DNA from: the human T2T-CHM13v2.0 reference genome, Homo sapiens | Strand: one strand, 5' to 3' | DNA: 64,000 nucleotides | NCBI RefSeq assembly: GCF_009914755.1 | Contig: NC_060929.1 | Shown: positions 1-3,232 of the stretch, one piece after another | Numbering within the stretch: position 1 is the stretch's first letter | Layout: the number at the start of each line of letters is the position of its first letter | Program-made: the position numbers and the translations under genes | The notes under the pieces: model-generated | Seen by the model: only the letters and a program-made list of their open reading frames with translations | The model's database searches: none | Told to the model about the DNA's origin: nothing

Positions 1-506
1 TCTAGAGCCAGGGATGGCTCTCTCCCTCCTCTATGCTCAGCCCTCACCCTGACCATCATTCTACAGGGATACTCTGCAAGGTGCAGGCTAATGTGAACTA
101 TGAATGTCCACTGAGAAAGTCACATTTTAAAATTGTAAATTTAACTGATATACTCCTCCTCCCAATAGGACAGATAACATGTTACTAAGGTTCTGAGTGT
201 CATCTAACTTTGTTTCTCTTCTGCCTCAAGAAATCTAACAAGTAGTTTTGGTATTAATATCTGCGTTGGAGTACTTCCTTATATCTTACTTTGGACGTAA
301 GTTTTAGAACCTAAAACTAGGAGTCATTGAGTGAGTGCTATAATGACCGAATATTTGTTTCAAAGTGCATTGCGTTGCTTCTTTCCTGTGATCCTTGACG
401 ATAGGATTTGAAACCCAACATCTATCTACTCATTCTGATTCAGAGGCTCAAGGGCATTAAGTAATAGATATCCAACATAAGAGACCCACAACAATGGTCC
501 TATAGT

Positions 507-512
507 TTTATT
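507..512 (-). terminator. Candidate polyadenylation signal (AATAAA) of the TGF-beta-like gene
   Basis: TTTATT on + strand; first AATAAA I found downstream of the minus-strand stop at 1229 (~720-nt 3'UTR). Confidence 0.35.
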
Positions 513-1228
513 AAAGATAGTGAAAAAGCTAATATCAAGTTCCTTAAATGATAGTGAGACAAACTTTCCATGAGGCCAGAGGCCCCCTCTGTCAGTCAAG
601 CAACATCCTCTACTCTCAGGCTCCCATCTGACACCAGGTTGTGAAGGCCTTGGGGCCCTTTACCCATGACTAGCCCATGACAGAATGCTTTCTTCCACAG
701 AGTCTTCACTCCCTCTAAAGAGGCCAGGAGTGTTAGGTGAGGAGGAATGTACATGCTGAGGTCAGTTCTGGACCAGCCCCAGGCCAATGGTACAGAGAAG
801 GATGATAGCAGCTGAATGGCTCAGAAAGAGTCCAAAGCCAGCTTAACACTGGTAACAATTTTACCCCTACCCCAAGAGCTGACATGCGTCCAATTCCAGT
901 TCCTCTTTCCCCACCTAAATGATCCCAGAGGTGGCACTAAGCCCAGCCCACTCACAATCTAGGACAGCGATAGTCAGACATCTCAATGGGCCCAGCTTCC
1001 CAGTAGTAGGAGTGACTGAGAACAGCACTAGGGGGCCCCTGCCACATCAAAGAGAAGCATCTATGAGGGGTTACTGCCATAATGCCAACCTTCTTGCTGT
1101 GCTTTGAGAAACAAACCAAATCCCACCTCCCTTCAAAGAGCTCTACTTGCTATGAAAAGTAATCCCACCCCCTACTAAAGTCCTGAGACTTAGGTGGCCC
1201 TGAGGCCAGTAGGAGGCTTTGGGGTATC

Positions 1229-1375
1229 TCAAGAGCAGCCACACTTCTCCACCAAGGAAGTGTTCACATAGTGCACACTCATCTTGTGTTCGTCATCCTG
1301 GACCATCAGGGAGAAGAGTCTGACCATGGTGGGACGGCAGGTCTGGAAGAGCCAGGGACAGGTAGGTACTGCCCT
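1229..1375 (-). CDS. TGF-beta-superfamily-like gene, last coding exon (RAVPTCPWLFQTCRPT...SLVEKCGCS*)
   Basis: Acceptor ttgtttctgcag|AGG, phase 0; ends in the family-typical C-x-P-x29-C-G-C-x-stop with the same C5-C6 spacing (31 aa) as BMP2. Confidence 0.85.
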   Translation of the reverse strand, partial: RAVPTCPWLFQTCRPTMVRLFSLMVQDDEHKMSVHYVNTSLVEKCGCS

Positions 1376-1727
1376 CTGCAGAAACAAATGGCAGAATGGT
1401 GAGTGCCTCATAGCCACAGCCTCATATCTAAGGGCATCAGTAGACTTGTCAGGGATACATGGGAAGGGAGAAGGAGGGCCTGGGGAGAAGCTGCTGGATC
1501 AGGGCTGTTTCAGAACAATCTTTAGGAAGCTGATGTTTCTTATGAATAAAGATAAGGGATAAGGTCACAGGGCGGGGAAGATGCTACACACTGCATCAGT
1601 GCTAGATTACATAATTACCAACTTCAATGGCTTCCTTGACTCAAAAGGAGCCAGGCCTAGAGAGTTGAGCACTTAGTGCTATCCCAATATGACCCCAGAA
1701 GAGAAAGAACGAGGCTCCATGTCTTAC

Positions 1728-2392
1728 CTTATAGCACTCAAAGCTGGAATGACGGAGCTCACTGTTGAGGGCCGGGCAGGTCCCCTGACAGTAAGAGAAG
1801 CTGAGAGTCTTGGGTGCAACAATACACTCGCCCCAGGCAGCTCTGTGAAGGTTCACCTTGCGATCCTGCAGATGGCAGAGCTTCTCTGCTGGAAAGATAT
1901 CCTGGCCATGGCCTATCTCCCGGCGATTCTGGCCCGGGATCCCCAGGATCAGCTGCTCCACATTAGAGATTAAGGGTTTCTGGACATAAGGCAGGTGAAA
2001 CAGAGGTGGCTGTGTGTGGGACAAGGTCACGAACAGCAACACTACGTCTTGTTTCCTTTCGGTACTGGAACATTCATTCAGGCTGGCATCAGCGACATCA
2101 GTGGCTGGAATCTTTGTCTCTGCCAAGAGGGTGGGCACCACCTCCATCCAATACGTGAGTAAACAGTAGATATCCAATAATGACCCTCCCTCTGACTGGT
2201 AGGATGAAAAGATAATGGGGAAAGATCCCAGAAGGAATCTTTGGAGGCCCCTTCTATGGTCCTCGAACTCTAGAACAAGCTCAGTGGCATGGGGGACAAT
2301 GGGCACCCAAGCCCATAACTTTATCAAGGAAACCCCCAAGAAGGAAACTGCCTCAAAACAGAGAAGCCAGTAGCTGTGTAGGAACTATGAGC
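1728..2392 (-). CDS. TGF-beta-superfamily-like gene, middle exon (prodomain plus N-terminal half of cystine knot); 5' boundary ambiguous (2392, 2384 or 2373)
   Basis: Open frame 2384-1728; prodomain-like LDIYCLLTYW (cf. BMP2 FDVTPAVMRW); dibasic NRR; C-x28-C-x-G-x-C with W..xIVAP in BMP register; donor AAG|GTAAGA phase 0 in frame with last exon. Confidence 0.8.
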
Positions 2393-2995
2393 CTGTAGGG
2401 AAAGAAGAGTGGAAGCTCCAGGAGGCCACTATCGTGGAAAGTCCCACCTCCCTTTCAGCTTCTTACTCCCCACTACCCAGCCGGGCAGGACAGGACAAAG
2501 ACTTAGCAGTCTCAGCTTGTCAAAGTCAGTGCTTAGTCCACAGCAGCCAGGGATGGACTGAGGTTCCTCAACTCCCATCACCCTACCCCTGGAATTAAGT
2601 CAGAATGATTGCCCTAGTACTGAAAATCATTCCAGTCACCATGACCTAAGACAAGCCACTTGCCCTGTTTATCTCCCAAAACACTATAGTTGCCCAGCCC
2701 AGCAGCTGTGTACTTCACACTTTAGAGCATCCTTACACACAGAACTTTAGGGCATCAGCCATAAAGCTTAAAGACATCCTACATACCAAGCCTGCAGAGC
2801 TGAAACCAGGAAGCAGATTCCATTTCTGCTAGACCAGCTGAAGAATATTCTGTACCCAACTCCTTGCTCTACTCACAAGAGCCCTTAATATCTGTTGTCA
2901 TTTACACCCCATTCCCTGACCAGCCCCACAAAATGCTGCCAGGCAGCTTCTGGATCACTCCTTCCCTGGCAAAGACCAGCGCTCCAGCTACTTAC

Positions 2996-3180
2996 TTTTG
3001 AATATGAGGGTAAAACCATGTTGCCTGGCAGAAAAAAATCTCATTTATGTGGGAAGGCAGCATCGGGTTGGGACAGTCAAACGTCTCTACTGAGCTCAAA
3101 CACATGCACCAAAGACCCAGAGCCAAGAGCCCAGGAATGAGCCAGGAGCTGCCACTTCTCCCACAGCCACCCTCCAACAT
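2996..3180 (-). CDS. TGF-beta-superfamily-like gene, probable first coding exon (signal peptide)
   Basis: ATG at 3180, hydrophobic WLIPGLLALGLWCMCLSS stretch, consensus donor AA|GTAAGT at 2996/2995. Confidence 0.6.
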
Positions 3181-3216: not shown

Positions 3217-3232
3217 TTTAAATATCCACGTG
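3217..3232 (-). promoter_or_regulatory. Putative core promoter: E-box CACGTG followed by TATA-like TATTTAAA
   Basis: CACGTG 3227-3232 and TATTTAAA 3224-3217, about 40 bp upstream of ATG 3180. Confidence 0.45.

What the first reader, a model, noticed from the sequence alone, without database searches (positions are those of the whole stretch)
1229..1880. Atypical cysteine pattern: no canonical dimerisation Cys, three extra Cys
Seen: the usual CC pair reads TC (QTCRP), and there are extra cysteines in WGECIV, SFECYK and PTCPW (nine Cys in total), plus an NTS sequon near the C-terminus. Established: GDF3, GDF9, BMP15 and LEFTY also lack the interchain cysteine and act as non-covalent dimers, monomers or antagonists. 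Inference: the two wrist-region cysteines may form a new intrachain bond or a relocated interchain bond, implying unusual receptor use or antagonist activity.
Basis: partly seen in the sequence, partly recalled or inferred. Interest (0 to 1): 0.7.

Follow-up and report, generated by a model that had tools for sequence, protein, structure and literature searches.

The report
Broken human second Nodal-like gene
The odd cysteine pattern is real and shared with other placental mammals, but it lies in a disabled human copy of a fast-evolving, little-known relative of the embryonic signal Nodal, so people make no secreted factor from it.

Summary
On the minus strand, 1728-1877 and 1232-1375 encode the two halves of a TGF-beta cystine-knot domain. 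It has nine Cys, T-C where the family has C-C, a Cys in place of the second finger Trp, two more wrist Cys and an NTS sequon.

The pattern is not human decay. In 10 eutherian orthologues from three superorders the knot Cys are 10/10 and the three extra Cys are 10/10, 9/10 and 9/10. None has C-C, and 0 of 11 has an RXXR site.

The gene is not GDF3-like. It groups with an echidna 'nodal homolog' and an unnamed 330-aa protein inside the vertebrate Nodal clade (100/98). It also shares NODAL's three-exon layout. Two papers I read in passages say mammals have one Nodal gene.

The human copy is disabled. It has an extra T in the signal-peptide exon and a TAG at the third whole codon of exon 2. The RefSeq lncRNA starts after the ATG and skips the prodomain. 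A chr10 retrocopy shows that a full-length spliced mRNA once existed. The parent gained 14 replacements against the retrocopy's 27.

Disulfide pairing and receptor use remain untested.

The parts
2996..3180 (-). Ancestral exon 1. It holds the ATG at 3178-3180 and a signal-peptide-like hydrophobic core, then an extra T in the T-run 3032-3038 that shifts the frame.
   Evidence: The frame from the ATG reads a hydrophobic stretch with mean KD 2.40 over residues 18-28, like rabbit, vole and echidna. After the T-run the orthologous reading continues in another frame. The chr10 retrocopy has one base fewer there. The retrocopy joins 2996 directly to 2392.
1728..2392 (-). Ancestral exon 2, encoding the prodomain and the first half of the mature domain. 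There is an in-frame TAG at 2385-2387, the third whole codon of the exon.
   Evidence: A 219-codon open frame runs from 2384 to 1728. TAG confirmed. The orthologues covering this codon that I read in the alignment all have Gln. The acceptor at 2392 is fixed by the retrocopy junction. The echidna protein P0140 matches window 1746-2375 at E 4.1e-27.
1728..1979 (-). Exon 2 as used by the RefSeq lncRNA NR_172721.1. It uses an internal acceptor that skips most of the prodomain.
   Evidence: Hub gene table. The acceptor context is a pyrimidine-rich tract followed by CAG. The longest ORF of that transcript model is 140 aa. It starts from an out-of-frame ATG in exon 1 and has no signal peptide.
1376..1727 (-). 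Intron 2 (352 bases, phase 0), lying inside the mature domain.
   Evidence: GT and AG ends. It is absent from the chr10 retrocopy. Human NODAL has a phase-0 intron within one codon of the same alignment position.
1229..1375 (-). Coding part of exon 3, the second half of the mature domain. It holds the PTC Cys, T-C in place of C-C, the NTS sequon, the C-G-C end and the TGA stop.
1..1228 (-). Start of the long 3' untranslated part of the last exon, which runs out of the window.
   Evidence: Hub gene table. Window bases 1218 down to 571 match the retrocopy at 82.3% identity.
3217..3224 (-). TATA-like word (TATTTAAA) starting 44 bases upstream of the ancestral ATG. It is a possible former promoter.
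   Evidence: Sequence only. Not tested.

Best explanation
Window 1229-3180 (minus strand) is the human copy of a fast-evolving mammalian gene of the Nodal branch of the TGF-beta family. RefSeq's label 'growth/differentiation factor 3' does not fit it.

Shown here:
- The gene has three coding exons like NODAL.
- Relatives exist in an echidna, in an unnamed 330-aa record, and in rabbit, rodents, tree shrew, desman, mole, aardvark and monkeys.
- The unusual cysteine set is ancestral to eutherians and is kept.
- All eutherian copies lack a convertase site.
- The human copy is disabled upstream of the mature domain by a one-base insertion in exon 1 and an in-frame TAG in exon 2.
- The annotated human transcript starts downstream of the ATG and skips the prodomain.

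So in people this is a transcribed unitary pseudogene, and the mature-domain frame is an intact fossil.

Inferred, not shown: where the gene is intact, the product is a secreted glycoprotein that stays an uncleaved pro-protein. It has 12 Cys after the signal peptide. It has no canonical inter-chain disulfide, no second finger Trp and a shortened wrist. I think it most likely acts as a non-classical partner or modulator of Nodal-GDF1/3 signalling, not as a classical homodimeric ligand. The gene most likely descends from the bird-type Nodal lineage (Nodal2), but that step is only weakly favoured.
For: Family:
- Pfam TGF_beta hits.
- Foldseek top hits for the model are activin and BMP chains, 90 matches at E <= 0.001.

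Orthologues:
- 23 proteins at E <= 0.01 among 191 candidates.
- Mature-domain identity between orders is 67-76%.

Cysteines:
- Knot Cys 10/10.
- WGxC Cys 10/10, against Trp in 19/22 other vertebrate Nodal rows and 50/52 other TGF-beta rows.
- FEC Cys 9/10 and PTC Cys 9/10.
- First position of C-C is Cys in 0/10.

RXXR within 45 aa before the first knot Cys:
- Eutherians 0/11.
- Monotremes 2/2.
- Other vertebrate Nodal rows 21/22.
- GDF1/3 rows 10/10.
- The C-terminal N-x-S/T sequon is present in 11/11 eutherians.

Nodal placement:
- A profile of the 10 orthologues finds P0035 (E 2e-13) and P0036 (E 3e-12) before any other family.
- P0035 is 88% identical to an echidna 'nodal homolog', P0140.
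- P0140's best place in the human genome is this locus, E 4e-27, against 4e-8 for the NODAL exon-2 piece.
- In the careful tree of 45 rows, the eutherian, P0036 and monotreme rows form one clade (100/100) inside the vertebrate Nodal clade (100/98).
- Holding this clade with the GDF1/3 rows costs 12.1 lnL, p-AU 0.036.
- The intron position and phase match NODAL within one codon.

Human lesions.

Past function:
- The chr10 retrocopy lacks both introns and joins 2996|2392.
- Pairwise dN/dS between parent and retrocopy is 0.55.
- Polarised replacements are 14 in the parent and 27 in the retrocopy, binomial p 0.06. Seven of the 14 are human-only, three of them at sites invariant in 8/8 non-primates.

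Precedents for active uncleaved Nodal: abstracts of 10.1101/2021.04.25.441333 and PMC4712875.
Against: - Only 2 of the 12 named eutherian models (rabbit, vole) carry a signal peptide and a full prodomain. Six start at an internal Met, like the old human model. So intactness elsewhere rests on few full models.
- No DNA of other species was available, so there is no codon-level selection test across mammals.
- The retrocopy carries TAG at the same codon as the parent. If that is not a parallel change, the gene was already truncated when the retrocopy formed. That clashes with the Gln in Cercocebus and with the slower parent rate.
- The 14 versus 27 contrast is not significant at 0.05. Human and Cercocebus show similar replacement counts since their split, 12 and 9 of 267 sites.
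- The Nodal2 affinity is weak. Holding the clade with the Nodal1 anchor rows is not rejected (p-AU 0.103). Placing it outside all other vertebrate Nodal rows is not rejected either (p-AU 0.098). A prodomain-only tree is unresolved.
- The locus lies beside MAP3K1, not in the EIF4EBP1/ASH2L/STAR block described for Nodal-related genes (10.1101/483974, passages).
- The human mature-domain frame is intact, and a 140-aa ORF exists in the lncRNA. Translation of some product cannot be excluded.
Confidence: 0.8

Rival explanations
1. The human locus still encodes a working atypical TGF-beta ligand or antagonist.
For: The mature-domain frame is open and all nine Cys and the sequon are kept. The lncRNA model holds a 140-aa ORF that reads into the mature domain. 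A 188-aa protein model, P0009, once existed.
Against: No available ORF has a signal peptide. The frame from the ancestral ATG breaks at the T-run, and a TAG follows at the third whole codon of exon 2. The annotated transcript starts downstream of the ATG (hub table). There are human-only replacements at sites invariant in 8/8 non-primate orthologues, including Leu to Pro next to the CxGxC. RefSeq lists the gene as lncRNA.
Confidence: 0.06
2. The locus is a GDF3 or GDF1 relative, as its RefSeq description says.
For: After the gene's own relatives, the best hits of the orthologue profile are GDF3-like rows P0039-P0041 (E 5e-9 to 1e-8). They also lack the first Cys of C-C.
Against: The tree places the clade inside vertebrate Nodal (100/98). 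Forcing it with the GDF1/3 rows gives p-AU 0.036. The human GDF1 and GDF3 loci match across the mature domain in one piece, with no intron, whereas this gene and NODAL break at the same place. The GDF1/3 rows have RXXR in 10/10.
Confidence: 0.03
3. The cysteine pattern is neutral decay of a dead gene and means nothing.
For: The human copy is a pseudogene, and primate copies show decay. The titi monkey model ends in Alu-like sequence. Human differs from Cercocebus at 21 of 188 residues.
Against: The same pattern is present in 9-10 of 10 orthologues spanning three superorders. All knot Cys are kept, and mature-domain identity between orders is 67-76%.
Confidence: 0.02
4. Origin alternative A: the gene is a duplicate of mammal-type NODAL (Nodal1) made in the mammalian stem, and it then diverged fast.
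For: Holding the clade with the Nodal1 anchor rows is not rejected (lnL 7.3 lower, p-AU 0.103). The locus is not in the Nodal2 synteny block. The gene is known only from mammals.
Against: The ML tree puts it on the other side of the Nodal1 split (93/74 and 85/98). The six best BLASTP hits of the echidna protein are all rows of the bird-containing group, and five of them align through much of the prodomain. The best Nodal1 row aligns over 137 residues at the mature-domain end only.
Confidence: 0.2
5. Origin alternative B: the gene is a third, old Nodal paralogue kept only in mammals.
For: A tree with all 22 other vertebrate Nodal rows held as one clade excluding it is not rejected (p-AU 0.098). 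It has a separate chromosomal place.
Against: No non-mammalian member was found among the 118 hits of the profile search or the 16 hits of the P0035 search. The ML tree nests it within the Nodal2 side.
Confidence: 0.2

Closest known systems
NODAL (mammal-type, Nodal1; human chr10 locus)
   Same: Both have a TGF-beta cystine knot. Both have three coding exons, with a phase-0 intron in the mature domain within one codon of the same alignment position. The gene lies inside the same vertebrate Nodal clade.
   Different: This gene has no RXXR site, T/A/V/I-C instead of C-C, and Cys instead of the second finger Trp. Its wrist is 3-4 residues shorter and it has two more Cys. The Nodal1-type protein P0099 did not match this locus at E <= 0.001 among the 31 human places listed.
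Bird-type Nodal (Nodal2, Nodal-related)
   Same: These are the best BLASTP partners of the echidna protein, P0036 and the rabbit protein, and many of the alignments extend into the prodomain. The ML tree puts the clade on this side. Many members have a displaced Cys (C-x-x-C) instead of C-C.
   Different: Passages of 10.1101/483974 and PMC12344233 describe it as absent from all mammals. Its neighbours are given as EIF4EBP1, ASH2L and STAR, whereas this locus lies beside MAP3K1. RXXR is present in these rows. The bird-type protein P0057 finds neither this locus nor any chr8 place other than the one at 97.27 Mb in the human genome (39 places at E <= 1).
GDF3 (also GDF9, BMP15, LEFTY, recalled as lacking the inter-chain Cys)
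   Same: The first Cys of the C-C pair is missing. This was seen here for the GDF3-like rows P0039-P0041.
   Different: It is a different branch of the family. GDF3 has RXXR and an intron-less mature domain. GDF9, BMP15 and LEFTY were not compared in detail here.
Uncleaved proNodal signalling
   Same: The abstracts report that Nodal can remain unprocessed in active Nodal-Vg1 signalling (10.1101/2021.04.25.441333). They also report that a cleavage-mutant proNodal acts through FGFR3 in chick (PMC4712875). A protein with no convertase site would be permanently in that state.
   Different: In those cases the cleavage site exists and its use is regulated. Here it is absent in 0/11 eutherian copies. 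No activity of this protein has been tested.

Membership tests
TGF-beta superfamily ligand | Match to the TGF_beta domain profile (PF00019) above the curated cut-off | tested here: met
   Human exon-2 half 34 bits (cut-off 27). Rabbit 48.9 bits, P0036 68.5 bits, echidna 95.5 bits.
TGF-beta superfamily ligand | Six cystine-knot Cys, including CxGxC and a terminal CxC | tested here: met
   All six are present in human and in 10/10 eutherian orthologues.
TGF-beta superfamily ligand | Inter-chain Cys (first Cys of the C-C pair) | tested here: not met
   Thr in human. Cys in 0/10 eutherians, against 46/52 other family rows.
TGF-beta superfamily ligand | RXXR convertase site between the prodomain and the mature domain | tested here: not met
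   0/11 eutherians, against monotremes 2/2, other vertebrate Nodal rows 21/22 and GDF1/3 rows 10/10.
TGF-beta superfamily ligand | Signal peptide in frame with the mature domain | tested here: not met
   This applies to the human copy. A hydrophobic core follows the ATG, but the frame is lost at the T-run and a TAG follows. Rabbit and vole models have it in frame.
Nodal family | Placement inside the vertebrate Nodal clade | tested here: met
   Support is 100/98 for the clade of 31 rows that holds it, and 99 SH-aLRT in the 76-row quick tree.
Nodal family | NODAL-type gene structure: three coding exons and a phase-0 intron after the N-H-A-x-I-Q position | tested here: met
   The intron lies within one codon of the human NODAL intron. 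The BMP3 and GDF10 loci also break near there, so the feature is not unique to NODAL.
Nodal family | Signalling through activin receptors with an EGF-CFC co-receptor | not testable with these tools
   This needs reporter assays.
Nodal2 (bird-type) orthogroup | Sister relation to named Nodal2 sequences in a tree | tested here: inconclusive
   The ML tree favours it (93/74 and 85/98). The alternatives are not rejected (p-AU 0.103 and 0.098). The prodomain-only tree is unresolved.
Nodal2 (bird-type) orthogroup | Neighbours EIF4EBP1, ASH2L and STAR | tested here: not met
   The human neighbours are MAP3K1, SETD9 and MIER3 (hub table). The synteny is as described in 10.1101/483974 (passages). Monotreme synteny could not be examined.
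GDF1/GDF3 | Grouping with GDF1/3 and a mature domain in one exon | tested here: not met
   p-AU 0.036 against the grouping. An intron lies in the mature domain, whereas the human GDF1 and GDF3 loci match in one piece.
Unitary pseudogene (human) | Disabling lesions in the only genomic copy, with intact relatives in other species | tested here: met
   One-base insertion and TAG. Only two places in the human genome match, and the other is an intron-less retrocopy with stops and frameshifts. Full-length rabbit and vole models exist.

The most novel reading that the evidence does not exclude
Mammals did not reduce to a single Nodal gene. A second Nodal-family gene survives from monotremes to placentals. 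It is most likely the supposedly lost bird-type Nodal2, moved next to MAP3K1. In therians it was rebuilt into a convertase-resistant, permanently 'pro' ligand with a rewired disulfide set: no inter-chain Cys, Cys for the finger Trp, and 12 Cys in the secreted chain. It still looks intact in rabbit, several rodents, tree shrew, moles and aardvark, while humans carry only its transcribed wreck and an old retrocopy. It could be an unrecognised modulator of Nodal-GDF1/3 signalling in the embryos or germ lines of model mammals.
Probability: 0.5. Interest if true: 0.8.

Novelty: new variant of a known kind. Interest (0 to 1): 0.6.

Why it matters
Nodal signalling sets up the germ layers and left-right asymmetry. 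Passages of a 2018 preprint and a 2024 review say mammals have one Nodal gene and lost the second before monotremes split off. The data here point to a further Nodal-family gene in mammals. It has unusual chemistry: no convertase site, no canonical dimer bond and a changed receptor-facing wrist.

If the gene works in rabbits or rodents, it is an untested player in a much-studied pathway. It would also be a natural experiment in how far a TGF-beta ligand can be remodelled.

For the human genome the practical message is narrower. LOC105378979 is a transcribed pseudogene of that gene, and its 'GDF3' label is misleading. The locus is quoted as the nearest gene of a breast-cancer association signal (PMC7057957, one table row seen).

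Tried and rejected
- The C5orf67 lead. The passages describe a gene with a 20-kb second intron. Nothing ties it to this locus, so I dropped it.
- A profile search in the word-indexed protein database returned only the gene's own relatives, 25 hits, and gave no outside link.
- The AlphaFold2 model of the full rabbit protein with the 10-row alignment gave mean pLDDT 35 and was not used.
- With an 87-row alignment, the human 188-aa model has confident fingers (10-residue blocks 92-94 over residues 91-120, and 92, 94, 91, 93 over 151-188). Its wrist is not confident (blocks 73, 51, 57 over residues 121-150) and shows no helix. No coordinates are returned, so Cys-Cys distances could not be read.
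- Counting columns diagnostic for Nodal1 versus Nodal2 found only 2 usable columns, which gives no power.
- The prodomain-only tree was unresolved and carried a long-branch warning.
- The two protein-atlas look-ups gave only generic TGF-beta clusters.
- Plus-strand ORFs 1272-1562 and 1677-1973 have no Pfam family at E <= 0.01.
- Literature searches that found no description of this gene: 'LOC105378979' (one GWAS table), 'nodal-related' + MAP3K1, Nodal2 + mammals + platypus, TGF-beta + unitary pseudogene + nodal, and 'nodal homolog 2-A' (0 papers).
- Supplements were not read. It may bear on whether monotremes were examined.
Full report
**Observation.** On the minus strand, a 219-codon open frame (2384 to 1728) ends at a GTAAGA donor. 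A 48-codon frame (1375 to 1232, stop TGA 1229-1231) starts after a pyrimidine tract and CAG. The join is in phase 0.

Pfam TGF_beta matches both halves. The first half scores E 5.3e-8 against profile positions 2-43. The second scores E 1.6e-4 against positions 68-104, which is below the curated cut-off on its own. The spliced reading is identical to a database protein of 188 aa, P0009, labelled XP_016865616.1.

The two plus-strand ORFs over the region have no Pfam family.

**Gene model and human lesions.** Upstream, an ATG at 3178-3180 opens a frame with a signal-peptide-like hydrophobic core (mean KD 2.40 over residues 18-28). Rabbit, vole and echidna N-termini look the same.

- In the run of seven T at 3032-3038 the human frame slips. 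The stretch that matches the orthologues continues in another frame.
- The first whole codons of exon 2 read Ser, then TAG (2385-2387). The orthologues covering this codon that I read in the alignment all have Gln.
- With the ancestral splice sites, the reading from the ATG runs into stops.
- The RefSeq lncRNA starts at 3098, after the ATG. It uses an internal acceptor at 1979. Its longest ORF is 140 aa, starting from an out-of-frame ATG, with no hydrophobic N-terminus (hub table).

No secreted product can be read from this locus.

**Orthologues and the cysteine pattern.** The exon-2 protein finds 23 proteins at E <= 0.01 among 191 candidates.

- Named models come from Cercocebus, Plecturocebus, rabbit, a vole, Scotinomys, Neotoma, Peromyscus, Phodopus, Meriones, Marmota, Tupaia, Galemys, Talpa and aardvark.
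- Automatic names vary: 'nodal homolog', 'nodal-like', 'growth/differentiation factor 3', 'uncharacterized'.
- Only the rabbit (330 aa) and vole (320 aa) models carry the signal peptide and whole prodomain. Six models start at an internal Met.

I took ten orthologues with a complete mature domain for the counts. I left out P0022 and P0024, whose C-termini are aberrant, and P0014, P0010, P0015 and the unnamed fragments, which are incomplete. Results:

| Position | Eutherians (10) | Other rows |
|---|---|---|
| Six knot Cys | 10/10 | – |
| Cys replacing the second finger Trp | 10/10 | Trp in 19/22 other vertebrate Nodal rows and 50/52 other TGF-beta rows |
| FEC Cys | 9/10 (Tyr in Peromyscus) | – |
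| PTC Cys | 9/10 (Tyr in aardvark) | – |
| First position of C-C is Cys | 0/10 | Cys in 46/52 other family rows |

From:

- RXXR lies within 45 residues before the first knot Cys in 0/11 eutherians, 2/2 monotremes, 21/22 other vertebrate Nodal rows and 10/10 GDF1/3 rows.
- The C-terminal N-x-S/T sequon is present in 11/11 eutherians.
- After the signal peptide, the rabbit and vole chains hold 12 Cys each, three in the prodomain and nine in the mature domain. The count is even only if the chain stays uncleaved.

Mature-domain identity between orders is 67-76%. The prodomain part is 49-62%.

**What family.**

- A profile of the ten orthologues ranks activin, BMP6, a Nodal/BMP2 chimera and BMP2 about equally among solved structures (E 6e-10 to 1e-6).
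- Against 1.84 billion representatives the profile finds 118 proteins at E <= 0.001. After the gene's own fragments come P0035 (E 2e-13) and P0036 (E 3e-12), both matched through prodomain and mature domain. GDF3-like rows follow at about 5e-9.
- P0035 is 88% identical to an echidna 'nodal homolog', P0140. Its next hits are bird NODAL proteins, at 30-34% identity over 98% of the query.
- In the human genome P0140 matches this locus best (window 1746-2375, E 4e-27, 36% identity). The NODAL exon-2 piece scores only 4e-8.
- A Nodal1-type protein, P0099, matches the three human NODAL exons at 73-91% identity. It anchors that lineage.

In a careful tree of 45 rows and 331 columns:

- The eutherian rows, P0036 and the two monotreme rows form one clade (100/100). 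Its internal order is monotremes, then P0036, then eutherians (86/38).
- This clade sits inside the vertebrate Nodal clade (100/98).
- It falls on the side that holds the bird sequences (93/74 and 85/98).

The AU tests gave:

- Holding it with the GDF1/3 rows is rejected at p-AU 0.036.
- Holding it with the Nodal1 anchor rows is not rejected (p-AU 0.103).
- Placing it outside all other vertebrate Nodal rows is not rejected (p-AU 0.098).

The six best BLASTP partners of the echidna protein are all rows of the bird-containing group, and five of them align through much of the prodomain. The best Nodal1 row aligns over 137 residues at the mature-domain end only.

Human NODAL's exon 2 ends after the N-H-A-Y-I-Q stretch, in phase 0. 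This gene's exon 2 ends within one codon of the aligned position, also in phase 0. The BMP3 and GDF10 loci break nearby too. The GDF1 and GDF3 loci do not break.

Pfam scores fall from echidna (95.5 bits) to P0036 (68.5) to rabbit (48.9). That fits stepwise divergence.

**Literature.**

- Passages of 10.1101/483974 say Nodal-related is absent from all mammals examined and is flanked by EIF4EBP1, ASH2L and STAR.
- Section 2.3 of PMC12344233, seen in a passage, says no mammalian Nodal2 orthologue has been identified and that it was lost before monotremes split off.
- Five searches found no description of this gene.
- The bird-type protein P0057 finds no place on chr8 other than the one at 97.27 Mb in the human genome, and does not find this locus.

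So a second Nodal-family gene in mammals appears undescribed in what I could search. Whether it is Nodal2 is open.

**A retrocopy as an internal control.** The human genome holds exactly one other copy, on chr10 (locus L015), at 84% identity.

- It lacks both introns. It joins window 2996 to 2392 and fuses exons 2 and 3. It continues into the 3' untranslated part. So it was copied from a full-length spliced mRNA that included the signal-peptide exon.
- Identity to the parent is 85.0% (exon 1), 84.4% (exon 2), 86.5% (exon 3) and 82.3% (3' part).
- Pairwise dN/dS is 0.55, with dS 0.216 and dN 0.119.
- Polarised by eight non-primate orthologues, the parent lineage has 14 replacements and the retrocopy 27 (binomial p 0.06). 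Six of the 14 are shared with Cercocebus and seven are human-only. Three of the human-only changes hit sites invariant in 8/8 non-primates, including Leu to Pro next to the CxGxC.
- Human and Cercocebus differ at 25 of 267 sites: 12 human-derived, 9 Cercocebus-derived, 4 unpolarised. None of the nine polarised Cercocebus changes lies in the mature domain.
- The retrocopy lacks the extra T, so the insertion is younger than the retrocopy.
- The retrocopy does carry TAG at the same codon. That is either a parallel change or a sign of older truncation. I cannot tell which.

**Structure.** With an 87-row alignment, the human 188-aa model has confident fingers: 10-residue blocks of 92-94 over residues 91-120, and of 92, 94, 91 and 93 over 151-188. 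The blocks over residues 121-150, which hold two of the extra Cys, score 73, 51 and 57, and no helix is predicted there. Foldseek finds activin and BMP chains. No coordinates are given, so the disulfide pairing stays open.

MAFFT places the PTC Cys in the column of the displaced Cys of C-x-x-C Nodal rows (14/22), at the price of a four-residue insertion. An intron-anchored alignment puts the two Cys four residues apart. Their homology is plausible but not shown.

The WGxC and FEC Cys are both absent from P0036 and the monotremes and both present in eutherians. This fits a pair that arose together. Peromyscus keeps one without the other.

From recalled BMP and activin structures, the wrist helix of one chain packs on the finger Trp pair of the other. 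A cross-chain bond between these two Cys is therefore a hypothesis worth testing. It is not a result.

**Mechanism.**

- Shown: family, gene structure, conservation, loss of the convertase site, and the human lesions.
- Inferred: where intact, the protein is secreted, glycosylated and never cleaved.
- Two abstracts give precedents. Nodal can stay unprocessed in active Nodal-Vg1 signalling, and exposed cysteines help hold Vg1 as a monomer (10.1101/2021.04.25.441333). A cleavage-mutant proNodal acts through FGFR3 (PMC4712875).
- I therefore favour a permanently 'pro' partner or modulator of Nodal-GDF1/3 signalling. In human the locus is a transcribed pseudogene.

**Caveats.**

- No DNA from other mammals was available.
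- Most representative rows are unnamed.
- The Nodal1 anchor has three rows.
- Several unnamed fragments (P0030, P0031, P0038, P0046) lack knot Cys or the C-terminus, which suggests repeated loss.

Noticed in passing
L015 (G000:C10:97706500-97710000), minus strand: This is an intron-less retrocopy of the chr5 gene at 84% identity. It has signal-peptide, prodomain and mature parts and 3' untranslated sequence, with stops and frameshifts. P0025 reads like the same copy over the mature domain, and P0026 looks like its counterpart in another species.
   Followed up: yes
window 2385-2387 and the matching codon in L015: Both the parent and the retrocopy read TAG where the other mammals I read have Gln. 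The cause is either a parallel change or a truncation older than the retrocopy. It is unexplained.
   Followed up: partly
L016 (G000:C22:22598800-22601200), plus strand: This is a TGF-beta-like open frame of 99 aa with C-C and a degraded end, resembling BMP5/6/7-type mature domains. It is probably a processed pseudogene unrelated to this finding.
   Followed up: no
window 3217-3224, minus strand: A TATA-like word starts 44 bases upstream of the ancestral ATG. The annotated lncRNA start (3098) lies downstream of that ATG.
   Followed up: no
window 2996-3098 + 1728-1979 + 1229-1375 (lncRNA model): The lncRNA's longest ORF (140 aa) starts at an out-of-frame ATG in exon 1. It reads into the whole mature domain in its native frame, without a signal peptide.
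   Followed up: partly
protein P0024 (Plecturocebus model): The C-terminus leaves the family sequence shortly before the C-G-C end. It continues in text resembling the Alu-like frames seen in L015, which suggests an insertion in the last exon in that monkey.
   Followed up: no
proteins P0030, P0031, P0032, P0033, P0038, P0046 (unnamed records): These are fragments of the same gene with knot cysteines replaced or the frame lost. They suggest that the gene has decayed in several further mammals.
   Followed up: no
human P0009 residue 26 (window about 2069-2071) and the prodomain of the orthologues: A prodomain Cys (the N-E-C motif) is present in 13/13 mammalian members and absent from all 22 other vertebrate Nodal rows. 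Together with two further prodomain Cys it makes 12 Cys in the secreted rabbit and vole chains.
   Followed up: partly
window 1272-1562 and 1677-1973, plus strand: Antisense open frames of 96 and 98 aa overlap the gene. Neither has a Pfam family at E <= 0.01.
   Followed up: yes
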